Assembly: GCF_036245885.1 (NCBI RefSeq)
Contig: NZ_BTTX01000008.1
Direction: 5' to 3' (one strand)
DNA length: 64,000 nucleotides
From: Corallococcus caeni
GTDB taxonomy: Bacteria > Myxococcota > Myxococcia > Myxococcales > Myxococcaceae
Shown here in pieces: positions 27,841 to 43,229 of the stretch (the stretch's first letter is position 1; each line of letters opens with the position of its first letter). Below the pieces are notes generated by a model. The model was not told the DNA's origin and made no database searches. It saw nothing but the letters and a program-made list of their open reading frames with translations. A program made the position numbers and the translations under genes.

Positions 27841-29556
27841 CTAGCAGTCCACCGGGCCTTTCAGGCTGGTAACGGTCGCTTCGATTTCTTCACACCCACC
27901 CAGCGTTTTCGCCCCGTGGGCCGCCAGCTTGATGCCCAGCACGTCCCCCACCGCCACGTCCGCCATGGAACGCACCACCCCGCCGTCCCGCTGGCGGAAC
28001 GCCACCGCGTAGCCGCGCGACATCACCTTCAGGGGGCTCAGGGCGTCCAGCCGGCCCCCCAGCCGCCCGAAGTGCGTCTGCGCGGACGACAGCATGCCCC
28101 GCTGCAGCTCCAGGAGCCTTGAGCGGGCCTGCGCCACCCTCGCCCGCTCGGTGGCCACCCGCGCCGTGGGCGAGGCCCGCTCCAGGCCCAGCCGCGCGTC
28201 CGCCAGCGCGCCCCGCCGCCGGGACACGCCCGCGCGGGCCGCCTCCGACAGGCGCATGGCCAGCTTGAGCAGATGGGCCCGCTGCTCCGACAGCCGCGTC
28301 TGGGGCCGCGAGCGCTGCAGCCGCTCCTGGAGGCCGCGCAGCGTCTCCCGGTCCTGCCGCACGCGGGGCCGCAGCACGCGCATCATCGCCTCCACCTGTT
28401 CGGACAGGTGCAGCCGCTGATGGTTCACCTCGCGGCGCGGATCCGGCAGCCGCGCGCGAAGCTGGCCCTGGCGCTCGCGCAGCTCCAGCACCCGCCGCTC
28501 CATGGCCCGGCGCAGGCGGCCGGACTGCGTGGCCAGCGTCAGCTCCAGGTCCGCCAGCACCGGCGCCAGCCGCTCCGCCGCCGCGCTGGGCGTGGGCGCG
28601 CGCAGGTCCGCGACGAAGTCGGAGATGGTGAAGTCGATCTCGTGCCCGATGGCGGACACCACCGGCACCGGCGAGGCGAAGATGGCCCGCGCCACCCGCT
28701 CCTCGTTGAACGTCCAGAGGTCCTCCACGGACCCTCCGCCGCGCGTCACGACGATGACGTCCACGTCGGTGCGCCCAAGCCGCTCGATGGCCCGCGCCAC
28801 GTCCTCCGCGGAGCCCTCGCCCTGCACGCGCGCGTCCGCCAGGAGCACGCCCAGCCGGGGGTTGCGCGAGTGCAGCACGCGCAGGAAGTCCTGGAGCGCC
28901 GCGCCGGTGCGGCTCGTCACGACGCCGATGCGCCGGGGCAGGAACGGCACGGGCCGGGGCGGCCGCACGCGCCGGTCGCCGATGAGCCCCTCCGCCGCCA
29001 GCCGCTGCTTGAGCTGCTCGAACGCGAGCGCCAGCGCGCCCTCGCCCACCGGCTCCAGCCGGGACACGATGAGGCTGTAGCGGCCCTGCGGCTCGTACAG
29101 GTCCACGCTGCCTTCGGCCAGCACCTCCATGCCGTCGCGCAGCGCGAAGCGCATGCGCCCCGCCATGGACGCCCAGACCTTCGCGTCGATGGAGGCGTCC
29201 GCGTCCTTGAGCGTGAAGTACCAGTGGCCGCGCGCGTTGGCGCCCCGGAAGCTGGACACCTCGCCGCGCACCAGCACGCGCGGGAAGCGCGACTCCACCG
29301 TCTGCTTGATCTGCCGGGTGAGCTCGCCCACCGACAGCACCGTGCGCTCCGGGCGCGGCGGCGGCGTGACGGCGACGGGCAGCGGCGGCGGGGCGGCTTC
29401 GGCCACCGGCGCGGGCGGCGGGGCCACGGGCGGCTTGCTCGGGCTCGCGGCCTTCGCGGGAGGGGGGCGCAGGGGTGGCAGCAGCGACGTGCCGAACAGG
29501 TCGCCCTGCCCCGGCTCCTCGGCCGGGGGCGGCTCCAGCCCCTTGCGCTTCTTCAT
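27841..29556 (-). CDS. xseA: Exodeoxyribonuclease VII large subunit with a Pro/Ala-rich N-terminal extension
   Basis: OB-fold and catalytic core: LSVGELTRQIKQTVESRFPRVLVRGEVSSF...GHWYFTLKD...VVTRGGGSVEDLWTFNEE. ATG at 29554-29556, overlapping the upstream FHA gene stop. Confidence 0.85.
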   Translation of the reverse strand: MKKRKGLEPPPAEEPGQGDLFGTSLLPPLRPPPAKAASPSKPPVAPPPAPVAEAAPPPLPVAVTPPPRPERTVLSVGELTRQIKQTVESRFPRVLVRGEVSSFRGANARGHWYFTLKDADASIDAKVWASMAGRMRFALRDGMEVLAEGSVDLYEPQGRYSLIVSRLEPVGEGALALAFEQLKQRLAAEGLIGDRRVRPPRPVPFLPRRIGVVTSRTGAALQDFLRVLHSRNPRLGVLLADARVQGEGSAEDVARAIERLGRTDVDVIVVTRGGGSVEDLWTFNEERVARAIFASPVPVVSAIGHEIDFTISDFVADLRAPTPSAAAERLAPVLADLELTLATQSGRLRRAMERRVLELRERQGQLRARLPDPRREVNHQRLHLSEQVEAMMRVLRPRVRQDRETLRGLQERLQRSRPQTRLSEQRAHLLKLAMRLSEAARAGVSRRRGALADARLGLERASPTARVATERARVAQARSRLLELQRGMLSSAQTHFGRLGGRLDALSPLKVMSRGYAVAFRQRDGGVVRSMADVAVGDVLGIKLAAHGAKTLGGCEEIEATVTSLKGPVDC

Positions 29557-31301
29557 CGCGACAGCTTCTCGACCCAGCCCTGGGCCTTGCCGTGCAGCTC
29601 GTCGTCGGGCGGCGTCATCGTGACGACGTCGCGGAACTTGGGCAGCGCGTCCTCCGGGCTGGAGTCCTTGATGGAGTAGGCCTGCATGTACAGGTCCTTC
29701 GCCTTGCCCTTGAGGTCGTTGACGATGTTGGCGGCGCCCGTGTGGTTGGGGTCCGCCTGGAGCGCGCGGCGGGCGAACTCCATGGCGCGCGACCACTGGC
29801 CGGCGGCCTTCGCGCCCGCGGCGCTCTTGTAATAGATGGTCGACGCGCGGGTGCCCGCGTTGCGCCCCATCTTGCTGCCGCGCCCGTCGGTGATGTCCTT
29901 GTCCAGCGCGAGCAACCGGGTGAGGCCCTTGGCGTCCAGTTCCTCCAGCTTCTTGTAGAGGTTGCCGAACTCCGTCACCTGCCCCATCAGCTGCTTGCAC
30001 TGCGGCGTCTTGGCCGCGCACGCGTTGAGGATGGCCACCGCGCCGGACGTGTCACCGTCGCGGAAGCGGTCCACGGCGGGCTCCCACGGCTTGGGCGCCG
30101 CGGCCACGCGCACCGGATCCGGACGGGTCAGGTCCGCGATGACGCGCACGGCATCGTCGTTCACGAGCTTGCCGTCGCGGTGCTCCGGGAAGGTCGCGAG
30201 CACGTCGTCGGTGATGGCCTTGGCCTTCTGCACGTTCTCCAGCTGGCGGGTGTCCAGCAGCTGCTTGGCTTCCTTCGTGCGCTTGTCGGCGGCGTCCGTC
30301 AGGTTCTTGCGCGCCGTCTTCAGCTGCTCGTAGAGCTGCGTGTCGGCGCTCACCTTCGCGATGGACGCCTTCGCGCTGGCGAGCTCCCCCTTGTCCAGCG
30401 CCGCCTGGGCCGTGCTCAGGTGGTTCTGGTTGGGGATCTCCCGCTCCGCGGCCTTGAGGTAGTCCTCCACCCCGGGGTAGTCCGGCGCCTGCGCGTGGAG
30501 CTCCTCCAGCTTCGCCTTGGCCTGCTGCCACTGGCCCTCGCGCACCAGGTTCTTGGCCTCCTGGAAGAGGCCGCCCAGCTGCTCGCGGTACTGGCGCTGC
30601 TCCGCCTCGATGCGGCCCTGCTCCTCCTGCTGGTGCCGCATGCGCGAGCGCGCGACGCCCAGGCCCGCGAAGAGCAGCACCAGCACGGCGGCGCCCGCGA
30701 GCTTCATCCGCATGCGCTTGCGCTGCATCTCCGGCGTGAGCTCCGCGGCGGCCGCGGCCCGCGCCGTCTGCGGGCGCGCACGGCCCTCGCGGGAAGGGCG
30801 CGAGGGCACGGCCGTGGGACCGCGCCCCGCCGCCGTGGACGGACGGGGCCGGGAGCCGGAGGGGGCCTGCACCTTGGCGGTGCTGTTGGCGGTGTCCTCG
30901 TAGCGCAGCTCCGAGTCGCCCAGCGTGATGACGTCCCCGTTGGCGAGGAGCGTCTCCTCGGAGATGGGCTCGCCGTTGACGATGGTGCCGTTGCCGGAGC
31001 CCATGTCGCTGACCATCCAGCCGGCGGACTCCTTGCGCAGCGTCACGTGCTTGCGGGAGACCGACGTGTCCTGGATGCAGATGGGGTTGTCCGTGGCGCG
31101 GCCGACCGTGTACTCGAGGTCGGCGAGCGCGAACTCCTCACCCTCCATGGGACCGGCGATGACGACGAGCTTCGCGGGGCGGGCCGCGGCGGCACCGGCG
31201 GTGGACCGGCGGACCGGCGCGCGCTGTCCGGTCCCGGAAGAGGGCGTACCGGATGTAGGCCGTCGGCGGGCGGGGGGTGGTGCGTTCGACATGGCGGTCA
31301 C
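29553..31301 (-). CDS. FHA-domain membrane protein with a TPR/coiled-coil periplasmic region
   Basis: FHA core YTVGRATDNPICIQDTSVSRKHVTLRKE...GSGNGTIVNGEPI, one TM (AGAAVLVLLFAGLGVA), then a helical extracytoplasmic domain. GTG start. Confidence 0.75.
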   Translation of the reverse strand: MTAMSNAPPPARRRPTSGTPSSGTGQRAPVRRSTAGAAAARPAKLVVIAGPMEGEEFALADLEYTVGRATDNPICIQDTSVSRKHVTLRKESAGWMVSDMGSGNGTIVNGEPISEETLLANGDVITLGDSELRYEDTANSTAKVQAPSGSRPRPSTAAGRGPTAVPSRPSREGRARPQTARAAAAAELTPEMQRKRMRMKLAGAAVLVLLFAGLGVARSRMRHQQEEQGRIEAEQRQYREQLGGLFQEAKNLVREGQWQQAKAKLEELHAQAPDYPGVEDYLKAAEREIPNQNHLSTAQAALDKGELASAKASIAKVSADTQLYEQLKTARKNLTDAADKRTKEAKQLLDTRQLENVQKAKAITDDVLATFPEHRDGKLVNDDAVRVIADLTRPDPVRVAAAPKPWEPAVDRFRDGDTSGAVAILNACAAKTPQCKQLMGQVTEFGNLYKKLEELDAKGLTRLLALDKDITDGRGSKMGRNAGTRASTIYYKSAAGAKAAGQWSRAMEFARRALQADPNHTGAANIVNDLKGKAKDLYMQAYSIKDSSPEDALPKFRDVVTMTPPDDELHGKAQGWVEKLSR

Positions 31302-31328
31302 CGCGTCCTGCTGAGGGGGGCACGGGCC

Positions 31329-34300
31329 CTAAAGCTCGTGCTCATAGGCTTTTTCCAGCGCCAGATTGTGGCAGCGATGCTCGGCGGTAGGGAAGCGTCT
31401 CCGCACGTCTTCGAGGGTCGCGACCGCATCCCGTCGGCTGCGGAACTGAACCGCCCGCTGGAATTGCATCATCAACTGCCCGCAGCGGTGGTCCAGCTCC
31501 GTTGAAATCTGGGCGATCCGCTCCCGGACGTCGTCGTACAGCTCCGGCTTTTCGTCGAGCGCTTCCAGGGTGATCCACGCGGCGCGGTACTCCCGCCACG
31601 CCTTGAACAGGTTCTCCGCGCCCACGTCCTTCAGCTCGTAGAAGCGGGCCCCGGTCTTGGCGGACTCCCGGGCGGAAGCGACCAGCTGATCCGGCGGCAG
31701 CTCGGGCACCGGGATGACTTCCAGGCGCAGGTTCCAGATGCGCCAGGGGTCGCGGCCGGGCGGGTTGAGGGCGTTGTCGAAGAGCAGCTGGTTGTTGGCG
31801 TTGCGGCGCAGGAGGCTGGGGGGCAGGACCTGCTCCAGCTCGCGCTCGGCCGTCTGCGCCGTGTCCGGGGGCACCCACCCCAGGGACACGCCGTTGAGGG
31901 ACAGGTTGACCTCGTCCCGGGCGATGTTGCTGGCCTGGTAGTGCAGCACGGCCACCGCGCGCGTGGGGGACACGAAGCGGAAGTCGAAGAGCTTGTCGTC
32001 GGCGTGCACCCAGCGCACGCCCTCCCCCAGGCCGAAGGAGTCCGGCACCGGCTCCATGCCCAGCTTGAAGGGTTCGCGGCCGGGGAGCCGGATCGCCGAG
32101 GGCACCACGAGCGCCACGAGCAGCGTCACCAGCGCCAGCGCGCCCAGCCCCGCCAGCGACGCGAAGCCGATGCGCCGGGGCAGCGACTGGCGCTGCCAGA
32201 AGAGGAGGAACTGGCCCTTGAGCGTCTTGCCCAGCTGACGCCGCTTGCGCGCCTTGTCGGCGGCGGACGACGGTTCGACCTTCGCGACGACCGTCACCGG
32301 CCCCTTGCGCACGGGCTCCATCGCGGAGGCTTCCAGTCCGGGAGGGAGGGGCTGGGTGGCGTTGCCCGCCTCTTCCGGGACGAGCGCGGGAGCCAGCAGC
32401 GGCGCCTCGCCGGGCATCGGTCCGGCGTCGAGCTTCGGCGGAGACGCGGACCGGTTCCGGCCCACGAGCGTGACCGGCTCCGGCTCCTGCTCCGGCGAAG
32501 GCGGCGGGACGGGGGGACTCCAGGTCGGCGGAGGCGCCAGGGCGGGAGCAGAGGGAGCGTTCTGGCCCGCGAAGGTGGGCGATGCCCGGGTCTCCTCCGG
32601 AGTGTCCGCGGGGATGGCGTCGTCCTGGCCGACGAAGGTCGCCGGTTCGGGGGCGCCTGGCGCGGGGGGAGTCGCCACCGCGACGCCAAAGCGCAGCGGC
32701 CTGGCCACCAGCGGGCTGACCGGGGTGATGGGCCGGAGGTCGAGGACGGTCCGCTCCTCGGGCTCCTCCATCGTCGGCACGGGCAGCGCGGACGAAGCGT
32801 CCAACGGCGGCGCGTCTTCCACCCGGGGCGGCGCTTCCGGGGTCGCCGGAATCGCCATCAGCGTGTGCTCCTCGGGCTCCTCCAGGTCCAGGACGGGCGG
32901 CACGGGGGCCAGCGTGGAGGCGGGCACGGGCGAATCCACGGTGGAGATCGCCATCAGCGTGCGCTCCTCGGGCTCCTCCAGGTCCAGGACGGGCAGCACG
33001 GGGGCCAGCGCGGAGGCGGGCACGGGCGAATCCACGGTGGAGATCGCCATCAGCGTGCGCTCCTCGGGTTCGTCCGGCAGCACCGGAGCGAGTTCCACGG
33101 GAGGCGGGGCGACGGGAGGCCGTGCCGGCGGAGGCGGAGCCACGAGCCCCGGCGGCGTCATCAACGGCAGGCCGGACGCGGAAGCCGCGGACACACGTGC
33201 CGCGCCACGACCCAGCTCGGGACGGTTCAGCGCGGGCGCGCCGACACCGGGGAGGTTCGCGCCAGCCTTGCGCTTCGCGGAAGCGGCCGGCTCCCCGGGG
33301 CCTGGGGCCGCGGCCTTCGCAGGCGCTGGAGCAGCTTCCACCGGGACAGGGGCGCCCACCACGGGAAGCTCACGCGCCGTCGGGTGCGCGGGCTCGGGAA
33401 CCCCCGCGGGCATGGAGGTCGCGCCCGGTACGGACGACCGGCCTGAACCCGAGGCACCGACGGCGGGCAAGCCCGGCGCCGAGGCTCTTCCCGAGGTGGA
33501 AGCCCCTGGGGCTGGAGGCGTCGCGCCGGCCTTGTTCGCCGGGGACGCCCCCACCGCGGGCAAGCCCGGCGCGGAGGATCTTCCCGACGTGGAAGCGCTC
33601 GCCCCGGGAGCCTTGGCCGGAACTCCGGCCACCTGACCTCCGGGCGCGGAAGCCCCAAGCACGGGAGGTCCAGCGGGAGCCCTGTTCGGAGCAGCTGCTT
33701 CAGCAAGCCCCGGAGCGGAAGGCCCCAGCACCGGAGGTACCGCGGAGGGCTTCGCCGGCGCGGAAGCCCCCAACACCGGAGGCCCGGCGGGAGCCCTGCT
33801 CGGAACGGCCGGTCCCGATGCCGCAGCTCCCAACACGGGAGGCCCCGGGGGAGTCCTGGCCGGAGCGGCACCGACCCCTGGCAGATCCGGCGCGGAGGGC
33901 CGCTTCGGCGTGGCGCTCGGCATCACCGGCATCACCGGAGCAGCCGCCCCACCCTTCGCGGCGGGCACGGCCATCCCGGGGCGCGGCAGGGACGCGGGCC
34001 GCGCCATCGCGGGCATCGACTGCTGGTAGCTCGTGGGCGCCGCTTCGATCTCCGCGAGCGAAGCCTGCTCCACGCCCTGCGGCGACACCCGCGCATGCGG
34101 CGGCGCGAGCGCGCGCCGGATAGGTCGGGTGACGTCGTCGTCATCCTCCGGCGCCACCCAGACGAACGTGAACTCCACCGGACCGACGGTGATGCGGTCG
34201 CCGTCGCGCAGCTGCTTCTCGCCGCCCAGCGGCTGGCCGTTCAGCTGCGTGCCGTTCGCGCTGCCGACGTCCTCGGCGAAGTAGCGCCCATCCCTCGCCG

Positions 34301-34376
34301 TGATGCGGGCATGACGCCGGGAGACACCGTGGTCATGCAGCACCAGGTCGTTCTCCGAGGTCCGGCCGATCTTCAC
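31329..34376 (-). CDS. Giant FHA-domain protein: N-terminal FHA, ~600-aa Pro/Ala-rich repetitive linker, one TM, C-terminal extracytoplasmic domain
   Basis: FHA core VKIGRTSENDLVLHDHGVSRRHARI...GSANGTQLNGQPL; TM FASLAGLGALALVTLLVALVV. The encoded N-terminus continues upstream of the first GTG (ILLTITQGLQVGRELAFEQAE looks like FHA beta-1/2) with no canonical start codon, so the true start is unresolved. Confidence 0.75.
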   Translation of the reverse strand: MKIGRTSENDLVLHDHGVSRRHARITARDGRYFAEDVGSANGTQLNGQPLGGEKQLRDGDRITVGPVEFTFVWVAPEDDDDVTRPIRRALAPPHARVSPQGVEQASLAEIEAAPTSYQQSMPAMARPASLPRPGMAVPAAKGGAAAPVMPVMPSATPKRPSAPDLPGVGAAPARTPPGPPVLGAAASGPAVPSRAPAGPPVLGASAPAKPSAVPPVLGPSAPGLAEAAAPNRAPAGPPVLGASAPGGQVAGVPAKAPGASASTSGRSSAPGLPAVGASPANKAGATPPAPGASTSGRASAPGLPAVGASGSGRSSVPGATSMPAGVPEPAHPTARELPVVGAPVPVEAAPAPAKAAAPGPGEPAASAKRKAGANLPGVGAPALNRPELGRGAARVSAASASGLPLMTPPGLVAPPPPARPPVAPPPVELAPVLPDEPEERTLMAISTVDSPVPASALAPVLPVLDLEEPEERTLMAISTVDSPVPASTLAPVPPVLDLEEPEEHTLMAIPATPEAPPRVEDAPPLDASSALPVPTMEEPEERTVLDLRPITPVSPLVARPLRFGVAVATPPAPGAPEPATFVGQDDAIPADTPEETRASPTFAGQNAPSAPALAPPPTWSPPVPPPSPEQEPEPVTLVGRNRSASPPKLDAGPMPGEAPLLAPALVPEEAGNATQPLPPGLEASAMEPVRKGPVTVVAKVEPSSAADKARKRRQLGKTLKGQFLLFWQRQSLPRRIGFASLAGLGALALVTLLVALVVPSAIRLPGREPFKLGMEPVPDSFGLGEGVRWVHADDKLFDFRFVSPTRAVAVLHYQASNIARDEVNLSLNGVSLGWVPPDTAQTAERELEQVLPPSLLRRNANNQLLFDNALNPPGRDPWRIWNLRLEVIPVPELPPDQLVASARESAKTGARFYELKDVGAENLFKAWREYRAAWITLEALDEKPELYDDVRERIAQISTELDHRCGQLMMQFQRAVQFRSRRDAVATLEDVRRRFPTAEHRCHNLALEKAYEHEL
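32851..33075. repeat. Intragenic 96-bp tandem repeat (~2.3 copies) encoding the 32-aa unit LEEPEE[RH]TLMAISTVDSPVPAS[AT]LAPV[LP]PVLD
   Basis: Near-identical 96-nt units start at 32851, 32947 and 33043 (seen directly in the sequence), inside the giant FHA gene. Confidence 0.85.
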
Positions 34377-34449
34377 CTCGGCCTGCTCGAAGGCGAGCTC
34401 CCGTCCGACCTGGAGCCCCTGGGTGATGGTGAGCAGGATGGGCAGAGGA

Positions 34450-35340
34450 CTAGCCCCCGACGTTGCCGAACATGAACTGGAACACGATGGGCCCGAAGAG
34501 CACCATGAACACCGTCGGGAAGATGCAGGCGATGAGCGGGAACAGCATCTTCACCGGGGCCTCGCCGGCCAGCTTCTCCGCGCGCTGCGTGCGGTCGATG
34601 CGCATCTGCGTGGACTGGATGCGCAGCACCTTGCCCAGGCTCGTGCCCATCTTGTCCGCCTGGATCAGCGCCGTGACGAACGTCGTCAAGGACGGCAGGT
34701 CCACGCGCACGATCATGCTCTTGAGGCCCTCCTCACGCGTCTTGCCCATCTTGAGCTGCTTGAGCACCAGCTGCAGCTCCTCGCGCAGCGGGCCCTGGCG
34801 GCCCTTCTCCACCACCTTCGCCAGCGCGCCCGTGAAGTCCATGCCCGCTTCCACCGACAGCGTCAGCAGGTCCAGGTTGTACGGAAGCGCGCGGCTGATG
34901 GCCAGGTGACGGCGCTTCACTTGATCGTTCAACCAGATGAGCGGATAGAACAAGCCCAGCAGCATCACCAGCAGTGACCAGGCCAGGTTCATCCCGATGC
35001 CGTTGACGACGAACAGGCCGGCCAGCAGGGCGAAGAAGGCGCTGATCTCCTGCAGCGCCATGATGTCCTCGGGCTTGTACTGCGACGGCTCGCCCGCCTT
35101 GATGAGCTTGCGGCGCGTCTTGGACTCGTAGCCCGGCCACATGAAGCGCCGGTTCATCGCGCCCAGCTTGCGGATGGCGACGGAGCCCGCGCCCTTCACG
35201 CCGCCCGCGGACTCGTCCCGGACTTCCGACAGGAAGCGCTCCAGGACGTTGGAGTACAGGCCGATGCCCAGGAACGCCACCGCGCCCGCGGTCAGCAGTG
35301 CCGAGCCGCCCATCAGCAGAAATGTCAGGACTTCCTGCAC
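34450..35340 (-). CDS. Tad/Flp pilus assembly inner-membrane platform protein (TadC-like, T2SS F family)
   Basis: GspF/TadB/TadC-type helical-bundle-plus-TM architecture; 296 aa. GTG start. Confidence 0.75.
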   Translation of the reverse strand: MQEVLTFLLMGGSALLTAGAVAFLGIGLYSNVLERFLSEVRDESAGGVKGAGSVAIRKLGAMNRRFMWPGYESKTRRKLIKAGEPSQYKPEDIMALQEISAFFALLAGLFVVNGIGMNLAWSLLVMLLGLFYPLIWLNDQVKRRHLAISRALPYNLDLLTLSVEAGMDFTGALAKVVEKGRQGPLREELQLVLKQLKMGKTREEGLKSMIVRVDLPSLTTFVTALIQADKMGTSLGKVLRIQSTQMRIDRTQRAEKLAGEAPVKMLFPLIACIFPTVFMVLFGPIVFQFMFGNVGG

Positions 35341-35353
35341 GGTGCGCCTCGTT

Positions 35354-36199
35354 TCAGATGTCGATGTTGACGATGCGCCGGATGATGAGGATGCCCATGA
35401 TCTCCATGATGGCGATCAGGGTCACCAGGATGTAGCCGAAGATGTGGTTCATCATCGGCTCCATCAGGTCCGGACGCATGTAGTTGAGCACCATGCCCAG
35501 CACCGCCGGCATGGCCGCGACGATCCACCCCTGGAGCTTGCCCTGGGAGGTCAACGCGTCGATCTTGCCTTCCAGACGGAAGCGCTCGCGAATCACCGTG
35601 GAGATGGTCTCGAACATCTCCGCCATGTTGCCGCCCAGCTGGCGCGCGATGTTGGTGGACACCACCACCAGCTCCAGGTCGTCGCTGCCCACGCGCTTGC
35701 CCATGTTGACGAGCGCCTCTTCCAGGGGCACGCCCAGCTTCACTTCCTTCACGAAGAGGCCGAACTCCTGGGACAGGGGCGGCATCGCCTCGCGCGCCAC
35801 GTGCTCGATGGCCTGGGGGAACGTGAGGCCCGCCTTGAACGCGTTGGCCATGGCCTGCAGCGCGTCCACCAGCTGCACGTTGAACTTCTTGATGCGGCGC
35901 TTGCGGTAGTGCTTCACGAGCAGCATCGGCAGGAAGAAGCCGAAGATGGTCGCGAGCACCGCCAGGATGGGGTTGAAGATGATGTAGCTGAGGATGCCCA
36001 GGAGGCACATGCAGGCGATGTTGAGGATCAACATCTGCCGCGCGTCGATGAAGAGGAACATGTCGCTCAAGTCGTTCATCGACTTGGCGACGTACCGCTC
36101 CTGGTACTGCTCGTACGCCTTCGACAGGACGCTGAAGATCACCAGGCTGAAGAAGAACACCGAGCCGGTGACAAGGAGGAGGACGATACCTGCGAGCAT
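35354..36199 (-). CDS. Tad/Flp pilus assembly inner-membrane platform protein (TadB-like, T2SS F family)
   Basis: Paralogue of the adjacent TadC-like gene; 281 aa with 3-4 TM segments. Confidence 0.75.
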   Translation of the reverse strand: MLAGIVLLLVTGSVFFFSLVIFSVLSKAYEQYQERYVAKSMNDLSDMFLFIDARQMLILNIACMCLLGILSYIIFNPILAVLATIFGFFLPMLLVKHYRKRRIKKFNVQLVDALQAMANAFKAGLTFPQAIEHVAREAMPPLSQEFGLFVKEVKLGVPLEEALVNMGKRVGSDDLELVVVSTNIARQLGGNMAEMFETISTVIRERFRLEGKIDALTSQGKLQGWIVAAMPAVLGMVLNYMRPDLMEPMMNHIFGYILVTLIAIMEIMGILIIRRIVNIDI

Positions 36200-36275
36200 G
36201 GGCGCGAATCCCCGGGGGATGAGGGAGGGGTCGGCAGGGCCGCTTCAGCTTGGGAAGCAGCCCCGCGCGCGACGA

Positions 36276-37094
36276 CTACGGGGAGCCGGCCGAGGCCTTC
36301 TCGCCGCTGCCACTGCCCTTGATGATCTGGATGATCTCCCGGCGCTTCTGCTCCAGCACGCGGGTGCGCTCGCCGGACAGCAGCGTGCTGATGGTGGCGC
36401 GGCCGCGCTCCTCGATGAGGTCCACGTCGTCCTCGTTGCGCAGCGACAGCGTCAGCTGCCCCAGCTCCGCCGCCAGCACCAGGATCTCCGCCTCTTCCGG
36501 CAGCACCATCAGCGAGACGTTGTTGTACTCGCGCTGGTTCTCCGGGATGAGGTTGATGTTCGTGGTGCCGGTGATCTTGCCCGTCGCGACCACGATGATG
36601 TTCTGCAGCAGCGTCACGGCGACGCTCTCATCCGTCTGCGGATCGCGGAACGTGCCGATGATGTCCACGTGGTCGTTGGGGCGGATCCACCCGCCCACGG
36701 ACGTGGTCTGCTTCGCCTCGATGGTGATGGCGCGCGCCTTCTTCTGCACCTTCGTGGACAGGCGCTCGGCGGCCTTCGTCGTCTCGAACTGGCTCCAGAG
36801 GATGGGGTCGCCGGCCTGCAGCGCCACCAGCACCTTCTGGTTCACGATGTAGTTCGCGGAGTCCGGCTTCACCACCGACGAGGTGACGAACTGCTCGGGC
36901 ACGGAGCGCTGGGAGATCATCTCGTACGTGATGACCGACCCCTCGGGCATGTCCTGGCCCGCCACCACCACGGGCACCAGGTTCCACCCGCGACGCACAT
37001 CCGATTCCTTCTTCTTGATGGCCGAGTAGGCCACGATGCCGGCGAGCAAACCGAGCACCAGTGCGACGACGAGCGGGGTCTTACCCTTCAACAT
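36276..37094 (-). CDS. cpaB: Flp pilus assembly protein CpaB/RcpC (SAF domain)
   Basis: N-terminal TM MLKGKTPLVVALVLGLLAGIVAYSAI, a SAF/beta-clip-like region VVVAGQDMPEGSVIT, and the CpaB C-domain. Confidence 0.75.
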   Translation of the reverse strand: MLKGKTPLVVALVLGLLAGIVAYSAIKKKESDVRRGWNLVPVVVAGQDMPEGSVITYEMISQRSVPEQFVTSSVVKPDSANYIVNQKVLVALQAGDPILWSQFETTKAAERLSTKVQKKARAITIEAKQTTSVGGWIRPNDHVDIIGTFRDPQTDESVAVTLLQNIIVVATGKITGTTNINLIPENQREYNNVSLMVLPEEAEILVLAAELGQLTLSLRNEDDVDLIEERGRATISTLLSGERTRVLEQKRREIIQIIKGSGSGEKASAGSP

Positions 37095-37240
37095 GGTTCT
37101 AGGTCCTCCAGAACGGTGGGGCGCCGTCGTGGCGGCAGGACAGCTTTGGACGAGGGGGCGATGCCAGGGCGCGAACGGGGCAAGATGTTAGCCATGCCCC
37201 AGAGCAGGTGTCAAAACCACCTCTCGTGACAAAGCGGAAT

Positions 37241-37255
37241 CCCGGGACACCCGGG
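37241..37255 (-). terminator. Short hairpin downstream of the flp gene (possible weak terminator/attenuator)
   Basis: The perfect palindrome CCCGGGTGTCCCGGG on the minus strand lies 70 nt downstream of the flp stop. There is no clear U-tract, so it is weak. Confidence 0.3.
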
Positions 37256-37326
37256 GCTCGCGGCGCCTGTCCCCCCGGCGGGGAGGACGGCGCGACACGC
37301 GGGCCTGATCCGCTGCTTCGCGCGCC

Positions 37327-37620
37327 TCAGGGGAACGGCAGGTTCAGCACGAAGTAGAACGAGTCGTAATAAATCTGGTACGCCTCGAGGAACAGGTCGA
37401 TGACGTTGGTCTGCTTGTCCTCGTTCCAGCGGATCTTCACCGTGGCGCCGATGACGAGCCCGACGATCAACACCCAGTTGATCATCGAGTACTCCACCAT
37501 GGCCTGGCCACGGCGGATCCGGCGGGGCGGAGACTTCCGGGGGCTGTTCACGGGGGGAGCGTGCACGTCCGACCTCATGGCCCCATTATCCAGGACCCGG
37601 GCCTCCCACGCATCGGTCAT
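37327..37620 (-). CDS. flp: Flp/Fap-type prepilin (class III signal peptide, G/QAMVEY processing motif)
   Basis: RRIRRG/QAMVEYSMINWVLIVGLVIGATV matches the Flp motif G/XXXXEY followed by a hydrophobic helix. The predicted mature pilin is 59 aa. An alternative start at 37578 would give a 24-aa leader. GC content is visibly lower than in neighbouring genes. Confidence 0.7.
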   Translation of the reverse strand: MTDAWEARVLDNGAMRSDVHAPPVNSPRKSPPRRIRRGQAMVEYSMINWVLIVGLVIGATVKIRWNEDKQTNVIDLFLEAYQIYYDSFYFVLNLPFP

Positions 37621-37638
37621 GTGGACTGCCCCCCTCCC

Positions 37639-39057
37639 CTACTGCGCGGGCGTGGAGGGGGCGACCTTGGCGGGAGCCGCGGGAGGCGAGGCCTGACGCA
37701 GGCGGCGCTGGGCCAGCTGGGCCGCGCTGGAGCCGGGGGCCTCGGTGATGATCTGCCCGCAGACGGTGGCGGCTTCCTGGCTCCGGCCCTGGACGGACTC
37801 CGACTCGCAGAGCCGTGAGAGCAGACCCAGTCGCTCGCTGCCCGTGGCTCCGGCGGCGAGTGCGGCGCGCAGCAGCTGTGCTTCCCGGGCGCGGTCCCCC
37901 TGGCTCGCGGCGGCCTGGGCCTGGGCGGACAGGTCGCGTGACGTCATCGCATCTTCGGAGGAGGCGGACTTCTCCACGGGCCTGGGCTTCGCGGCCTCCG
38001 CGCGGGTGGACTCCTTCCGCTGTTCGGGGGCTGAGAGCGTCGTGGTCGCGGGCGCGGGCTGGCGGCCCAGCGCGCCCGTGGCGACGGGAGCCACGGCCTC
38101 GGCCATGGGCGCGGAGGCCACGGGAGGAGGCGGCGGGGCCGCGCCCGCGGCCATGCCTTCGGCTTCATCGTCCAGGGCGAGCCCACGGCCATAAGACGCA
38201 CCGCCCAGGCGCAGGGAGTCGTTCTTCGCGACCTTCGCCTTGTCGCTGCTTGCACCGGGTGCGCGCCGCGGCGCGGGGGCGTCCTTCATGGCGAGGGCGC
38301 TGTCGGCCTCCTCTTCCTTCGGAGGCGGAGACATCTCCTGCGCGACCGCGGCGGCCGGGGCCGGCTCGAGCGCCGCGAACTCGTCCGCGTCCCGGACGGC
38401 CTTGGCCATCTTCTTCTTCGGTGCGTCGGCGTCCGCGCGACGCCGCTCCAGCAGCGCGCCACCGCTGCCCGCGTTCATCCAGTCCGACGGACGGGCGCCG
38501 GCCGCGCCCTTGAGCTCTGCCTGCGCGTCGCCCTGCTTCCGGTCCGCGAGCTGCTCCATCGGCTCGGGCGCGGCCGTCGCCAGGGGCGCGCTCGAAGGCG
38601 CGGGCGGGGGCATCGCGGCGCGCGGGGCGGGAGACTCCGCCTTCTGCTTCGCCGCCTCCATCGTCGGGCTGGAGGCCTTCTGCGTCAGGTTCGGCTCCAG
38701 GTGGAGGTTCTCGCTGACCGTCAGCGTCAGGAGGCCGAAGGTGCTCACCGTGGCCAGGCCCACCGCGGGCAGGAGCCAGCGGCGCCAGCGCGAGGGCTTC
38801 GGCTCGGGCCCCGCGGCGGCGCGGCGCGCGGACTGCTGCGCGTACGCGAGCAGCGACTCCAGGCCCGCGTCCGGCGCGGGCTCCGACGACAGCTGCGCCA
38901 TGGTGGTCCGCACGCCGCGGATGTCCGCCAGCGCCTTCGTGCAGCGCGCGCAGCCCTGGACGTGCTGCTCCAGCGACCGGGCCTCCGACGCGGGCAGCTC
39001 GCCGTAGGCGAAGTCGAGGAGCCGGTCCTCGTGCGCGTGGGCATTCTGGGCACTCAT
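37639..39057 (-). CDS. Anti-sigma factor: zinc-binding N-terminal domain, one TM, ~330-aa Ala/Pro-rich periplasmic region
   Basis: N-terminal anti-sigma motif LLDFAYGELPASEARSLEQHVQGCARCT (H-x3-C-x2-C). TM WRRWLLPAVGLATVSTFGLLTLTV. ATG overlaps the sigma gene stop (ATGA). Confidence 0.75.
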   Translation of the reverse strand: MSAQNAHAHEDRLLDFAYGELPASEARSLEQHVQGCARCTKALADIRGVRTTMAQLSSEPAPDAGLESLLAYAQQSARRAAAGPEPKPSRWRRWLLPAVGLATVSTFGLLTLTVSENLHLEPNLTQKASSPTMEAAKQKAESPAPRAAMPPPAPSSAPLATAAPEPMEQLADRKQGDAQAELKGAAGARPSDWMNAGSGGALLERRRADADAPKKKMAKAVRDADEFAALEPAPAAAVAQEMSPPPKEEEADSALAMKDAPAPRRAPGASSDKAKVAKNDSLRLGGASYGRGLALDDEAEGMAAGAAPPPPPVASAPMAEAVAPVATGALGRQPAPATTTLSAPEQRKESTRAEAAKPRPVEKSASSEDAMTSRDLSAQAQAAASQGDRAREAQLLRAALAAGATGSERLGLLSRLCESESVQGRSQEAATVCGQIITEAPGSSAAQLAQRRLRQASPPAAPAKVAPSTPAQ

Positions 39058-39701
39058 CCCGCCACCGTCCTTCCATCCTCCGACAGGTCGCCATCCACGC
39101 CCAGCTCTCCCAGGCGGCGGCGCAGGCCCTCCAGCGCGTAGCGCATCCGGCTCTTCACCGTGTTCTCGGACACGCCCGTCACCTCGGCGATCTCCTTGAA
39201 CGGGATGCCGCTGTACTCGCGCAACACGAACACCTCGCGCTGCTCCTCCGGCAGGCCCGACAGGGCGCGCTCCAGCAGGGGCCGCAGGCGCGCGTTGTGC
39301 GCCCCGCGCTCCGGACTGGCGCCGGCATCCGGCAGCCCCTCGCCCAGCGGACGTCCCTCGTCCCCGTCGGCACCCGCCGTGGGGGCTTCCAGGGACGTCG
39401 CCTGGCGGTAGCTCTCTTTGCGCGTGCTGTCCACGCAGAGGTTCCTCGCGATGGTGTACAGCCAGGTCGTGAACCGGGCCTTGGGCTCGTATTCCCGGGC
39501 GCTGCGGACCACCTTGAGCCACGTCTCCTGCAGCACGTCCTCCGCCCGTGCCCGCTGCCCCACGAAGCGCAGGATGAAGTTGAACACCGGCGCGCGGTGC
39601 TTGCGCACCAACGCTTCGAACGCGCGCGCGTCTCCCGCCTGGAAGGCGAGCATCAGCTGCTCGTCTGAGGTTTCGGGTGCCAAACTTCCCCCAGTGCCCA
39701 T
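39054..39701 (-). CDS. ECF (group IV) RNA polymerase sigma factor
   Basis: Sigma-70 region 2 (ETWLKVVRSAREYEPKARFTTWLYTIARNLCVD) and region 4 (LPEEQREVFVLREYSGIPFKEIAEVTGVSENTVKSRM). The start is taken at the second M (39701); the ORF opens at 39734. Confidence 0.85.
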   Translation of the reverse strand: MGTGGSLAPETSDEQLMLAFQAGDARAFEALVRKHRAPVFNFILRFVGQRARAEDVLQETWLKVVRSAREYEPKARFTTWLYTIARNLCVDSTRKESYRQATSLEAPTAGADGDEGRPLGEGLPDAGASPERGAHNARLRPLLERALSGLPEEQREVFVLREYSGIPFKEIAEVTGVSENTVKSRMRYALEGLRRRLGELGVDGDLSEDGRTVAG

Positions 39702-39765
39702 GAAGCCACGGGTGCCATCCCCTTCACCGCCCACGGCCTGTAACGGACAGCCGTGCGCGAAAGGT

Positions 39766-40173
39766 CTATTCCGGCCGTGGCCGCCGGTAAGTGGCGAGAA
39801 TGACAGGGACCGCCACCCCTGTCACCAGAAGTGCCTGCGCCAGCAGCACCGCCGGCAGCGGGCGCTGCACGTGCACGTACAGCGAGCGGCCAAGCCCCAC
39901 TCCCAGGAGGACGCCCGTCAGCGTGCGCAGCGCGTTGGAACCGGACGCGGGCCGGAAGCGTCCCACCGCCCAGTCCACCAGCGCGGGCAGCGTGAGGGCC
40001 AGCACCACCGGCACGTCCCACTCCCACCGGAGCGGCGCCTTCAGCGCGAACAACCCCAGGAACACGGCGGCGAGCACCGGGTACGTCCCCAGGCACCGCG
40101 CGCACACGCGCACGCCCGCGAGCACGTACGTGCGGTTGTACTCATCCGCGTGATGATGGCTGAGCCAGAACAC
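39766..40173 (-). CDS. DUF2085-like small membrane protein with a CxxC motif
   Basis: Four predicted TM helices and VCARCLG. The proposed start is GTG at 40171-40173, overlapping the oppF-like gene by 32 nt. Start assignment is low confidence. Confidence 0.45.
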
Positions 40174-41193
40174 CGCCGCCTCCTCCGGACACGGAAACAG
40201 CGGTCCCGTCCTGCACTTCCCGCGAGTCCCCTTCCGCCAGGAAGCACGCCGCGGCGTGGCCTCCGCCCAGCGGATACAGCGGCGGCGACTCGCGCCGGCA
40301 GCGCTCCATCGCATGGGGGCAGCGCGGGTGGAACGCGCAGCCGGTCGGCGGCGACAGCGGCGAGGGCGGCTCTCCCGGCAGGAGCAGTCGCGCGCGGGGG
40401 CGCTCCGGATCCGGCACCGGCACCGCGGACAGCAGGGCCTGCGTGTACGGGTGGCGAGGCCCGGCGTACAGCGCCCGCGACGGCGCGACCTCCACGATGC
40501 GGCCCAGGTACATCACCGCCACGCGCGTGGACACGTACTCCACGATCTTGAGGTCGTGCGCGATGAAGACGTAGGTGAGCCCGCGCTCGCGCTGCAGGTC
40601 CACCAGCAGGTTGACGATCTGCGCCTGGATGGAGACGTCCAGCGCGCTGATGGGCTCGTCCGCCACCACCAGGTCCGGACGCAACGCGATGGCACGTGCA
40701 ATGCCGATGCGCTGACGCTGGCCGCCGGAGAACTCGTGCGGGTAGCGCTGCCGCGCCTCGCGGGGCAGCCCCATGGCGTCGAGCAGCGCCAGCACCTCGT
40801 CCTCGCGCGCCCTGCCCTTCGCGAGGCCATGGATGGCGAAGGGCTCCGCGAGGATGTCCCCCACCGTCATGCGCGGGTTGAGCGACGCGTACGGGTCCTG
40901 GAAGACGAGCTGCATCTGCCGGCGCAGCGGCCGCAGCTCGCGCTGCGACAGGCCGGTCAGCTCGCGCCCGGCCACGCGGATGGAGCCGGAGGTCGGTTCG
41001 AGGAGGCGCAGCACCGCGCGCCCCAGGGTGCTCTTGCCGCAGCCGCTCTCCCCCACCAGGCCCAGCGTCTCGCCCCGGGCGACGTCGAAGGACACGCCGT
41101 CCACCGCGCGCACCGTGCCGCGCGTGCGCCCCAGCAGGCCGCCCTTCACCGGGAAGTGCACCTTCAGGTCGCGCACCTGGACCAGGGGTTCGC

Positions 41194-41197
<4 letters not shown>
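40142..41197 (-). CDS. Oligopeptide/dipeptide-type ABC transporter ATP-binding protein (OppF/DppF-like); no permease or binding protein in the window
   Basis: Walker [10 protein letters not shown], signature FSGGQRQR, Walker [14 protein letters not shown]-terminal oligopeptide-ABC extension with HPYT. It carries an unusual Gly-rich tail. ATG at 41195-41197. Confidence 0.8.
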
Positions 41198-42227
<1,030 letters not shown>

Positions 42228-42231
<4 letters not shown>

Positions 42232-43220
42232 TTCTGGGCCAACTCCTCCAGGAACTCCGCCTCCTGGATGAGCCCCTTGCGGATGAGCAGGCGGATGAGG
42301 CTCGCGACCATGCGCGCGGGCTTCACCTTCTCCGTGTCCAGGCTGGCCTCCTCGCCGCGCGAGATGCGGTCGATGTCGTCCAGCACCGCCAGGTCCTCCT
42401 CGGAGAAGTCCGGCGTGGGCGTGAGCGCCATGGACGGCTTCGCGCCCTGCGCGGCGCCGCCGAAGAGCACCACCGGCACGCGCGGCTTGCTCGGGTCCTC
42501 GGGCTCGGAGGGCGGAGGGGGCGGCGGCCGGGCCGCGGCGGGCGGCGGCGGGGGACGCGGGGCCTTGGGGCGGGGCTTGGAGCCCAGGATGTCTTCCAGC
42601 ACCTCCGCGCCGTCGACGCCCGACTCGTGCGGCGGCGGTGGAGGCAGGTCCCAGTCCAGCGCCGGCGGCGCGGGCGGGCGCGGCGGCGCCGGGGGCCGCG
42701 CGGAGGCGGAAGGCGGCGACGGCAGGATGTCCGGCGAATCGTCCTCGTCCATGTCCATCGGTTCAGCCTCCACGATGTCCAGGGGCTCGCCCCGGCCGCG
42801 CGCGAGCGCCTGCTCCATGTCATCCGACGCGGCGACGAATACCTTGAGCTGCTTGCGCAGCTGGAAGCGCAGCTCGTCCACCAGCATCAGGTTGCCCGGG
42901 TCCTCCACCGCGACGTGGATCTTCTCGCTGCGGCCGTCCTGCTCCGAAGCGAAGAGGAGCACCCGGTGCTCGCTCTGGAAGTCCATGGACACCAGCGAGG
43001 ACACCCCGTGCGGGATGTACTCGGGGATCTCCACGAAGGGCAGCTCGTGCTGCGCCGCCAGCGCCCGCGCGATGTCCCGGCCCGTGCACAGGCCCATGGA
43101 CACCAGCACCTCGCCCAGCTTGCGGCCCTGGCCGCGCCTTCCGGAAGCCAGGGCCTGCTTCACCTGCTCGTCCGTCACCACTCCGGCCTGGACGAGGAGT
43201 TCACCAATCTTCTTGCGCAT
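42228..43220 (-). CDS. Standalone MshEN / GspE-N-terminal (T2SSE_N) domain protein with a Pro-rich C-terminal half
   Basis: Two 24-residue MshEN c-di-GMP-binding motifs: [24 protein letters not shown] and [24 protein letters not shown]. No ATPase domain. Confidence 0.7.
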
Positions 43221-43229
43221 GGCCGGGGG

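What the first reader, a model, noticed from the sequence alone, without database searches (positions are those of the whole stretch)
37327..39701. ECF sigma/anti-sigma pair directly upstream of the Flp prepilin gene
The sigma stop overlaps the anti-sigma start (ATGA at 39054-39057), and the anti-sigma stop is only 18 bp from the flp start. This suggests pilin expression is tied to a dedicated ECF sigma/anti-sigma system. The anti-sigma has a zinc-binding N-domain (HVQGCARC), one TM, and a 330-aa Ala/Pro-rich periplasmic region. The 232-bp gap after flp contains a palindrome (37241-37255) that could set pilin to platform stoichiometry. Dedicated ECF control of a Tad/Flp pilin is not a described feature as far as I know.
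Basis: partly seen in the sequence, partly recalled or inferred. Interest (0 to 1): 0.7.

Follow-up and report, generated by a model that had tools for sequence, protein, structure and literature searches.

The report
Sigma/anti-sigma pair heading predatory pilus genes
A membrane-signalling regulator pair (ECF sigma factor plus its anti-sigma) sits at the head of the Tad-like "Kil" prey-killing pilus genes in Corallococcus and all its relatives, so it is an untested candidate switch for these genes, but the pilin and the platform genes also carry their own conserved promoter-like signals.

Summary
An ECF sigma gene (39054-39701, minus strand) overlaps a zinc-finger transmembrane anti-sigma gene (37639-39057) by ATGA. 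A small Flp-type pilin gene and cpaB/tadB/tadC follow.

The window is Corallococcus. The locus is the ortholog of Myxococcus xanthus Kil cluster II, the Tad-like prey-killing apparatus. The "flp" gene is kilK (MXAN_4655), a minor adapter pilin rather than the major pilin. The pair corresponds to MXAN_4662/MXAN_4661. Published work lists MXAN_4661 only as "unknown, putative zinc-finger".

The pair is linked to kilK in nearly all of about 80 related loci, in three gene arrangements.

One conserved ECF-type promoter (TAGACC-N17-CGTT) lies upstream of sigma, and none lies before any kil gene. The likely start is 37578. kilB has a conserved sigma-70-type promoter.

ECF control of the pilin is therefore plausible only through read-through, and it is unproven. 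This is a new member of a known kind, of moderate interest as a testable regulator of predation.

The parts
39766..40173 (-). DUF2085 membrane-protein gene. Its last 60 bases carry the regulatory block that precedes sigma.
   Evidence: Pfam DUF2085, E = 5e-10. Called as 135 aa in identical relatives. Lies upstream of sigma on the same strand in the loci where it was found; in the Archangium/Cystobacter arrangement other DNA (0.15-4 kb) separates the two.
39787..39824 (-). Conserved inverted repeat TGACAG-N12-CTGTCA followed by TTCTCGCCACTTAC, centred about 44 bases upstream of the -35-like hexamer. Role unknown; possibly an operator or activator site.
   Evidence: Conserved in the alignment of 62 sigma upstream regions. 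Persists as a non-coding copy behind DUF2085's own stop codon in Cystobacter and Archangium loci L046, L052, L055 and L080.
39742..39768 (-). ECF-type promoter-like element TAGACC-N17-CGTT upstream of sigma. TAG is also the DUF2085 stop codon.
   Evidence: One match in the window against 0.02 expected. 66 sigma-proximal matches against 2 elsewhere in all fetched loci. The spacer is 16 or 17 bases in 53 of 54 distinct instances.
39054..39701 (-). ECF sigma factor gene, inferred ortholog of M. xanthus MXAN_4662 / MXAN_RS22635. An alternative conserved TTG start lies at 39683.
   Evidence: Sigma70_r2, r4_2 and PRK12513. 80-90% identical across genera. Nearest solved relatives are AlgU, SigE, SigL, SigW and RpoE.
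37639..39057 (-). Transmembrane ZAS anti-sigma factor (ortholog of MXAN_4661). It has an N-terminal HxxxCxxC domain, one TM helix (residues 94-114), a low-complexity linker of about 255 aa, and a C-terminal TPR-like domain (residues about 373-456).
   Evidence: zf-HC2 hit. Hydropathy and composition. Conservation profile. AlphaFold model with pLDDT above 90 for five helices. Best fold match is the YbgF/CpoB TPR domain 2xev (weak sequence match).
37585..37619 (-). Conserved box TGACCGATG-N20-GATAAT in the anti-sigma-kilK spacer. GATAAT ends 6 bases before ATG 37578, a geometry typical of leaderless transcripts.
   Evidence: One match in the window against 0 expected. The same box precedes kilM4 in 31 loci and kilK in 14 compact loci. 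GATAAT-to-start distance is 6-7 bases in 42 of 45 cases.
37327..37578 (-). kilK, a Flp-type minor 'adapter' pilin (ortholog of MXAN_4655). Likely an 83-aa prepilin with cleavage motif G/QAMVEY and the invariant C-terminus YYDSFYFVLNLPFP.
   Evidence: 265 homologs, mostly 74-77 aa. Alignment A1. M. xanthus ortholog P0040 lies in synteny at L007. KilK role taken from PMC12075869.
37241..37255 (-). Palindrome/hairpin CCCGGG-TGT-CCCGGG downstream of kilK. At best a weak terminator or RNA-end element.
   Evidence: Six-pair consensus stem in 14 Corallococcus-type sequences, with only G-U wobble changes. Not called a terminator. Folding z-score -1.5.
37185..37214 (-). Sigma-70-type promoter-like element TTGACA-N18-TAACAT upstream of kilB.
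   Evidence: The only sigma-70-type hit in 34000-41000, matching 10 of 12 positions. Conserved in 73 of 78 loci in all three arrangements.
36276..37094 (-). kilB (CpaB/RcpC homolog).
   Evidence: TIGR03177 pilus_cpaB, 192 bits, and Pfam RcpC.
34450..36199 (-). kilG (35354-36199) and kilH (34450-35340), the TadB/TadC-type platform proteins.
   Evidence: Pfam T2SSF. 79-100% identical in related loci.
29553..34376 (-). Two FHA-domain proteins (31329-34376, and 29553-31301 with TPR repeats) that close Kil cluster II before xseA.
   Evidence: Pfam FHA and Yop-YscD_cpl. Same gene order as MXAN_4649 and MXAN_4648.

Best explanation
The locus is the Corallococcus version of Kil cluster II, part of the Tad-like apparatus that myxobacteria use to kill prey on contact.

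Shown:
- The ECF sigma and ZAS anti-sigma genes are the orthologs of MXAN_4662 and MXAN_4661. They form a translationally coupled two-gene unit.
- The unit has its own conserved ECF-type promoter, TAGACC-N16/17-CGTT, embedded in the 3' end of the upstream DUF2085 gene.
- The anti-sigma has a zinc-finger sigma-binding domain, one TM helix, a long low-complexity linker and a small periplasmic TPR-like domain.

Inferred:
- An envelope signal sensed through the TPR domain inactivates the anti-sigma. The freed sigma then raises transcription from its own promoter.
- No ECF-type promoter precedes any kil gene, so the only route from sigma to the pilin is read-through. That would reach kilK here, and the Tip4 genes kilM4-kilN4-kilL4 as far as kilK in Myxococcus.
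- kilK also has its own conserved promoter-like box. Corallococcus inherited it from kilM4 after losing the Tip4 genes.
- kilB-kilG-kilH start from a separate conserved sigma-70-type promoter. The platform genes are therefore largely independent of the ECF pair, which would tune adapter and tip pilin supply rather than switch the whole system.
For: - Orthology and synteny with M. xanthus Kil cluster II.
- The ATGA overlap is kept in 56 of 67 loci.
- The ECF-type motif is unique to the region upstream of sigma: 66 matches there against 2 elsewhere, and 1 in the window against 0.02 expected. A relaxed motif matches 51 of 59 regions against 4 expected.
- The motif and the adjacent inverted repeat survive as non-coding DNA in Archangium and Cystobacter, so they are cis-regulatory rather than coding conservation.
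- M. xanthus ECF promoters share AAc at -35 and cGT at -10 (PMC6061681).
- No terminator-like site lies between the anti-sigma and kilK.
- A 2026 preprint names MXAN_RS22530-RS22635 as the second kil cluster and reports it recovered in a 20-gene predicted operon; RS22635 is inferred here to be the sigma gene, and the held text does not list the operon's members.
- MXAN_4658-4660, the genes just after the anti-sigma, are mildly induced on prey (PMC9548883). The kil genes are described as induced during predation (PMC11804543).
- Sigma is 80-90% identical across genera, whereas the anti-sigma is about 40-55% identical.
Against: - No transcript data were available for this locus. Read-through is inferred only from gene spacing and the absence of a terminator.
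- kilK/kilM4 and kilB have their own conserved promoter-like elements, which look nothing like the sigma promoter.
- In 13 or more Archangium, Cystobacter and Vitiosangium loci the pair converges on the pilin operon, so read-through cannot operate there.
- One MAG (L060) has the kilM4 cluster with no sigma within 4.3 kb upstream.
- The -35-like hexamer reads GAC, not the usual AAC.
- Linkage in the inverted arrangement could simply be inherited rather than selected.
Confidence: 0.45

Rival explanations
1. The pair is a neighbour by descent, not a regulator of the pilus. It would belong functionally to the conserved upstream block (MshEN proteins, ABC ATPases, DUF2085) or to a regulon elsewhere in the genome. 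The kil genes would then run only from their own promoters.
For: - DUF2085, sigma and anti-sigma stay together on one strand in all three arrangements, whereas the pilin segment is inverted relative to them in Archangium and Cystobacter.
- kilK/kilM4 and kilB have their own conserved promoter-like elements.
- No ECF-type motif precedes any kil gene.
- L060 keeps the kilM4 box without an adjacent sigma.
Against: - Same-strand spacing is tight (60-170 bp) and no terminator was detected in arrangements A and B.
- A preprint reports the M. xanthus kil cluster delimited by RS22530-RS22635 as recovered in one predicted operon.
- The pair is linked to kilK in nearly every locus with enough flanking DNA.
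Confidence: 0.3
2. Sigma, anti-sigma and flp form one dedicated operon that is the main driver of pilin expression, and the palindrome after flp acts as an attenuator that sets the pilin-to-platform ratio.
For: - Overlapping and closely spaced genes.
- The hairpin is conserved within Corallococcus and lies just upstream of a new promoter.
Against: - The 18-bp gap rests on an ATG that lies inside a conserved non-coding box.
- The pilin has its own promoter-like element.
- The pilin is a minor adapter pilin whose deletion only partly reduces predation (PMC8460266, PMC12075869).
- The hairpin has no T-run, a z-score of only -1.5 and no compensatory pairs. It is absent from the other compact loci.
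- kilB has a conserved sigma-70-type promoter, so platform expression does not depend on leakage through the hairpin.
Confidence: 0.12
3. The sigma directly recognises the TGACCGATG...GATAAT box as a non-canonical target promoter, so control of the pilin genes is direct rather than by read-through.
For: - The complete box occurs only where kilM4 or kilK lies directly downstream of the anti-sigma (arrangements A and B). It is degraded in arrangement C.
- The box shares the bases GACC with the TAGACC hexamer.
Against: - TGACC and GATAAT are separated by about 25 bases, far outside the 14-17 bases usual for ECF promoters.
- No CGT-type -10 lies at the right distance.
- L060 keeps the box without a neighbouring sigma.
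Confidence: 0.08

Closest known systems
M. xanthus Kil cluster II (MXAN_4648-4661; Seef 2021 PMC8460266, Herrou 2025 PMC12075869)
   Same: Orthologous genes in the same order: sigma, anti-sigma, kilK, kilB, kilG, kilH, two FHA proteins, xseA. KilK is 70% identical and KilB 93% identical.
   Different: Corallococcus lacks kilM4, kilN4, kilL4, MXAN_4657, 4656, 4654 and 4653 at this locus, so the anti-sigma abuts kilK. Those papers list MXAN_4661 only as 'unknown function, putative zinc-finger' and do not mention the sigma.
DdvS/DdvA of M. xanthus, an ECF sigma and transmembrane anti-sigma controlling the adjacent CRISPR4-cas/CBASS island (PMC6061681, PMC11506125)
   Same: An ECF sigma with a membrane anti-sigma that has a large extracytoplasmic part. 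The pair sits at the head of a specialised gene cluster and has an autoregulated promoter of the AAc/cGT type.
   Different: DdvS drives four mapped DdvS-dependent promoters across its island. Here only one ECF-type element is detectable, upstream of sigma itself, and the downstream genes carry unrelated promoter-like elements.
RpoE/AlgU/SigE/SigL/SigW-type ECF sigmas with RseA/MucA/RslA-type anti-sigmas
   Same: These are the best sequence matches among solved structures: AlgU-type 6in7, SigE, SigL and RpoE for the sigma, and RslA (3hug_B) for the anti-sigma N-domain. The anti-sigma is a single-pass membrane protein.
   Different: The periplasmic part is a disordered linker of about 255 aa plus a small TPR-like domain, not an RseA or MucA periplasmic domain. 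No RseB, DegS or RseP partner genes lie nearby.
Known regulation of flp-tad loci, for example PprAB in P. aeruginosa and the indirect effect of the ECF sigma SigX (PMC3832394)
   Same: Loss of an ECF sigma lowers flp 17-fold and tad genes 2-4-fold in P. aeruginosa. ECF influence on Flp pili therefore has a precedent.
   Different: SigX is unlinked to the tad locus and probably acts through PprB. Here the pair is physically attached to the pilus gene cluster across a whole bacterial family.

Membership tests
ECF (group IV) sigma-70 factors | Only sigma regions 2 and 4; small size of about 200 aa. | tested here: met
   Pfam Sigma70_r2 (E = 7e-19) and Sigma70_r4_2 (E = 1e-16), with no region 1 or 3. 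Length 209-215 aa. TIGR02937 scores 115 bits against 43, and PRK12513 scores 269 against 206.
ECF (group IV) sigma-70 factors | Cognate anti-sigma encoded next to the sigma and co-expressed with it. | tested here: met
   ATGA overlap at 39057-39054, kept in 56 of 67 orthologous loci.
ECF (group IV) sigma-70 factors | Autoregulatory promoter with an AAC-type -35 and a CGT-type -10. | tested here: inconclusive
   TAGACC-N16/17-CGTT is conserved upstream of sigma. The -10 fits cGT, but the -35 reads GAC rather than AAC. No transcription start data are available.
ZAS (zinc-binding) anti-sigma factors | N-terminal anti-sigma domain with the H-x3-C-x2-C motif. | tested here: met
   HVQGCARC is present. 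Pfam zf-HC2 scores 25.0 bits against a cut-off of 22.2. H, C and C are at least 90% conserved among orthologs.
ZAS (zinc-binding) anti-sigma factors | Binds zinc and binds its sigma. | not testable with these tools
   Needs biochemistry or a two-hybrid assay.
Flp/Tad (type IVc) pilins | Prepilin cleavage motif G/XXXXEY followed by a hydrophobic helix; short mature protein. | tested here: met
   RG/QAMVEYSMINWVLIVGLVIGA, with a 59-aa mature part. R, G, Q, M, E, Y and S are invariant in 21 sequences. It is the only such ORF in the window.
Flp/Tad (type IVc) pilins | Match to the curated Flp family model. | tested here: not met
   No Pfam or NCBIfam family at E <= 0.01. Some sources label relatives 'Flp pilus assembly pilin Flp'. 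It is filed as a KilK ortholog on synteny and 70% identity to the M. xanthus protein.
Kil cluster II of Myxococcaceae | kilK, kilB (CpaB), kilG and kilH (T2SSF) and two FHA proteins next to xseA, with no ATPase, secretin or peptidase in the cluster. | tested here: met
   Domain calls. Gene order is identical to the M. xanthus locus L007 apart from the missing Tip4 block.

The most novel reading that the evidence does not exclude
The pair is the missing signalling module of contact-dependent predation. In this reading the anti-sigma's periplasmic TPR domain, held on a linker long enough to span the periplasm, senses Kil-machine activity or prey-derived envelope perturbation. It then releases a sigma that induces the tip and adapter pilin genes, and possibly unlinked targets such as kilP, cluster I or the other Tip clusters. 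This would make it the first dedicated trans-envelope ECF switch for a Tad-type pilus.
Probability: 0.2. Interest if true: 0.7.

Novelty: new member of a known kind. Interest (0 to 1): 0.45.

Why it matters
How myxobacteria induce and deploy the Kil prey-killing pilus on contact is an open question. The published work points to unknown signalling proteins within the clusters.

This analysis identifies MXAN_4661 as an anti-sigma factor and, by inference from gene order, MXAN_4662 as its ECF partner. The pair is conserved at the head of Kil cluster II across the family. Three distinct conserved promoter-like elements are mapped, which gives concrete and cheap experiments.

If the pair does control tip or adapter pilin supply, it would link envelope sensing to the choice of pilus tips. 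If it does not, the conserved kilK/kilM4 box and the kilB promoter are still the places to look for the real regulators.

Tried and rejected
- **Second copy of the sigma-upstream motif.** Searched in front of kilK, kilM4, kilB, kilG, kilH and MXAN_4654 orthologs with an exact pattern, a position weight matrix and a relaxed [AG]AC[CT]-N15-17-CGT pattern. Only chance-level or antisense intragenic hits were found.
- **The kilK/kilM4 box as a standard promoter.** TTGACC lies 25 bases from GATAAT, and there is no GG-N10-GC for sigma-54. Both readings were rejected by inspection of the alignments.
- **The palindrome and both spacers as structured RNA or terminators.** Z-scores run from -1.0 to -1.5, and there are no compensatory pairs.
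- **Expression data for MXAN_4661/4662.** The supplements of PMC9548883 and of the DiscOperon preprint were either truncated or not held.
- **Testing the major pilin gene kilP (MXAN_5121) for the sigma-type promoter.** Its sequence could not be obtained from the held supplements, and it is not in the window.
- **ECF group assignment.** The classification paper's main text has no entry linking any group to pili or DUF2085.
- **More distant sigma homologs.** The top 120 hits were all orthologs at 79% identity or more, so distribution outside the family remains unknown.
Full report
**What is in the sequence**

All the genes lie on the minus strand. In order they are:
- a DUF2085 membrane-protein gene (39766-40173);
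- a sigma gene (39054-39701);
- an anti-sigma gene (37639-39057);
- a small ORF (37327-37620 as read by the first stage);
- cpaB (36276-37094);
- two T2SSF platform genes (35354-36199 and 34450-35340);
- two FHA-domain genes (31329-34376 and 29553-31301);
- xseA.

The ATGA overlap at 39057-39054 is exactly as reported. So are the 18-base distance from the anti-sigma stop (37641-37639) to the ATG at 37620, the 232-bp spacer, and the palindrome at 37255-37241.

The sigma has only regions 2 and 4. It passes the curated cut-offs of TIGR02937 and PRK12513. Its nearest solved relatives are AlgU, SigE, SigL, SigW and RpoE.

The anti-sigma carries a zf-HC2 domain with HVQGCARC. It has one hydrophobic segment at residues 94-114 and a 256-residue stretch that is 25% Ala and 13% Pro.

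**Identity of the locus**

The CpaB protein is encoded identically in several Corallococcus assemblies with the same gene order. The sigma is 100% identical to a Corallococcus sp. protein, and the anti-sigma is 99% identical to one from C. caeni.

The small ORF has 265 homologs, restricted to Myxococcaceae/Archangiaceae-type genomes and mostly 74-77 aa long. They share an invariant RGQ(A/S)M(V/L)EYS prepilin motif and the C-terminus YYDS(F/Y)Y(F/Y)VLNLPFP.

The M. xanthus member (P0040, 75 aa) lies in a locus with this gene order: DUF2085, sigma, anti-sigma, TadE-like, TadG-like, TadE-like, two unknown genes, the 75-aa pilin, two unknown genes, CpaB, T2SSF, T2SSF, FHA, FHA, xseA. This matches the published table of Kil cluster II gene by gene:
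- MXAN_4660, 4659 and 4658 are KilM, KilN and KilL (Tip4).
- MXAN_4655 is KilK.
- MXAN_4652, 4651 and 4650 are KilB, KilG and KilH.

The window's "flp" is therefore kilK. Herrou et al. reclassified KilK as a minor adapter pilin that joins the tip complex to the KilP filament. The major pilin KilP (MXAN_5121) is encoded elsewhere.

The anti-sigma is MXAN_4661, listed in that table only as "unknown function, putative zinc-finger". The sigma is the next gene, MXAN_4662 / RS22635, by inference from gene order. It is not mentioned in either Kil paper.

**Conservation of the neighbourhood**

A scan of one genome per species with the KilK alignment returned 79 loci. I annotated them by tblastn with the window and M. 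xanthus proteins. Three arrangements appear:
- **A.** DUF2085 > sigma > anti-sigma > kilM4 > kilN4 > kilL4 > 4657 > 4656 > kilK > 4654 (> 4653) > kilB > kilG > kilH. Found in Myxococcus, Pyxidicoccus, Hyalangium, Citreicoccus and many MAGs. Stigmatella has it too.
- **B.** The compact form of this window: DUF2085 > sigma > anti-sigma > kilK > kilB > kilG > kilH. Found in all Corallococcus and a few distant MAGs.
- **C.** Found in Archangium, Cystobacter and Vitiosangium. The kilM4-to-4654 block is inverted, so kilB-G-H diverge from kilM4 and the sigma/anti-sigma unit converges on the pilin operon.

Wherever the contig reaches far enough, the pair is present. The exceptions are one MAG (L060), where peptidase and RluA genes precede kilM4, and the very distant L086.

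The ATGA overlap is kept in 56 of 67 loci. Sigma is 80-90% identical across genera, whereas the anti-sigma is only about 40-55% identical. This fits a fixed promoter specificity paired with a fast-evolving sensor.

**Cis elements**

1. **Upstream of sigma.** An alignment of 62 upstream regions shows a block: TGACAG-N12-CTGTCATTCTCGCCACTTAC, then about 20 bases, then TAGAYC-N16/17-CGTT.
   - The TAGAYC...CGTT part occurs 66 times next to sigma and only twice elsewhere in all loci. It occurs once in the window against 0.02 expected.
   - In Corallococcus and Myxococcus the block overlaps the last codons and the stop of DUF2085.
   - In Cystobacter and Archangium, DUF2085 ends earlier or lies up to 4 kb away, and the block persists as non-coding DNA. 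The conservation is therefore regulatory, not coding.
   - The layout fits the AAc/cGT scheme of M. xanthus ECF promoters, except that the -35 reads GAC.
2. **No such element before any kil gene.** A position weight matrix scan found only antisense intragenic hits. A relaxed pattern gave these counts:

   | Region upstream of | Regions matching | Expected by shuffling |
   |---|---|---|
   | sigma | 51 of 59 | 4 |
   | kilM4 | 3 of 51 | 3.0 |
   | kilK (compact loci) | 1 of 30 | 1.4 |
   | kilB | 6 of 76 | 8.9 |

3. **The anti-sigma-kilK spacer.**
   - In this window it contains CCACATGACCGATGCG-N-GGATAAT-N6-ATG.
   - The same box precedes kilM4 in 31 arrangement-A loci and kilK in 14 compact loci. 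GATAAT lies 6-7 bases before the start codon in 42 of 45 cases. The published Tip4 deletion primer confirms that ATG as the kilM4 start.
   - The ATG at 37620 is therefore part of the box. The likely kilK start is ATG 37578, in a geometry typical of leaderless transcripts.
   - For Corallococcus, the most parsimonious history is a deletion that fused the kilM4 promoter region to kilK.
4. **Upstream of kilB.** TTGACA-N18-TAACAT (37214-37185) is the only sigma-70-type hit in 7 kb. It is conserved in 73 of 78 loci in all three arrangements.
5. **The palindrome.** It forms a six-pair stem conserved within Corallococcus with only wobble changes. It has no T-run, is not scored as a terminator and is not unusually stable.

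**The anti-sigma sensor**

Conservation is high in residues 1-95, low through the linker, and moderate again in the last 100 residues or so. An AlphaFold model built from 30 orthologs gives five helices at pLDDT above 90 for residues about 373-456. The best structural matches are TPR domains, led by the periplasmic YbgF/CpoB TPR domain. A weak sequence match points the same way. The extracytoplasmic part is therefore a long flexible tether ending in a small protein-binding module.

**Mechanism and how far it is supported**

Shown:
- the identity of the genes;
- their translational coupling;
- family-wide linkage to Kil cluster II;
- a conserved ECF-type element upstream of sigma only;
- separate conserved promoter-like elements for kilK/kilM4 and for kilB.

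Inferred: the sigma autoregulates from TAGACC-N17-CGTT and influences kilK (and Tip4 genes in Myxococcus) by read-through, while kilB-G-H are expressed independently.

Supporting context:
- A 2026 preprint names MXAN_RS22530-RS22635 as the second kil cluster and reports it recovered in a 20-gene predicted operon. It never mentions a sigma factor, and the held text does not list the operon's members.
- MXAN_4658-4660 are mildly prey-induced.
- The kil genes are described as induced during predation.

Against:
- the independent promoter-like elements;
- the convergent arrangement in Archangium and Cystobacter;
- L060;
- the complete lack of transcript data here.

I put the read-through model at about 0.45, a purely historical neighbourhood at about 0.3, and the other readings lower.

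**Novelty**

No held paper links an ECF sigma to the Kil system. The nearest precedent for ECF influence on Flp pili is the unlinked and probably indirect effect of SigX in P. aeruginosa.

ECF sigma/anti-sigma pairs that head the gene clusters they control are well known. DdvS/DdvA in M. xanthus itself is one example. This finding is therefore a new member of a known kind, not a new kind of system. Its value is that it turns an "unknown, zinc-finger" gene in a much-studied predation cluster into a specific, testable regulator candidate, and that it corrects the pilin start and promoter map.

Noticed in passing
window 39787-39824 (minus strand); L046, L052, L055, L080 upstream of sigma: The inverted repeat TGACAG-N12-CTGTCA plus TTCTCGCCACTTAC lies inside the DUF2085 coding end in Corallococcus and Myxococcus. 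In Archangium and Cystobacter it survives as a non-coding 'fossil' copy after DUF2085's own stop. It is a likely operator or activator site, with no known binding protein.
   Followed up: partly
window 40142-44899 (minus strand): A conserved block lies upstream of DUF2085 in the Corallococcus and Stigmatella loci examined. It comprises DUF4292, two proteins made only of an MshEN domain (a c-di-GMP-binding type, N-terminal to T2SS/T4P ATPases), and two oligopeptide-type ABC ATPases with no permease gene. The second ABC ATPase gene overlaps DUF2085 by 32 bases. The M. xanthus locus, which starts inside the first ATPase gene, shows the same ATPase-DUF2085 part. The block could belong functionally with the Kil cluster.
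   Followed up: no
window 32851-33075, inside the FHA gene 31329-34376: A 96-bp tandem repeat (2.3 copies, 96% identical) encodes repeated EPEERTLMAISTVDSPVPAS... units. It sits in the long Pro/Ala-rich middle of the FHA protein, whose length varies from 484 to 1015 aa between species.
   Followed up: no
L007-L087 (arrangements A, B, C): The Tip4 minor-pilin block (kilM4 through MXAN_4656) is absent from this locus in all Corallococcus. In Archangium, Cystobacter and Vitiosangium it is inverted as a unit together with kilK and MXAN_4654. The breakpoints fall exactly at the anti-sigma/kilM4 and 4654/kilB spacers.
   Followed up: partly
window 39683-39701: The sigma start is ambiguous. ATG 39701 gives 215 aa. 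A TTG at 39683, preceded by GGGGGA, is the position conserved across genera and gives 209 aa; most orthologs are annotated at 199-210 aa.
   Followed up: partly
window 37215-37232 (minus strand): The block GTC(A/G)CGAGAGGTGG immediately upstream of the kilB -35 hexamer is conserved between Corallococcus and Myxococcus. It could be an UP-like element or an operator.
   Followed up: no
window 19108-21621 (minus strand): A hybrid histidine kinase (GAF, HisKA, HATPase_c, receiver domain and a partial GGDEF match) lies about 8 kb downstream of the Kil cluster. The related loci carry a single-domain response-regulator gene just after xseB, and the window presumably does too, but I did not confirm this.
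   Followed up: no
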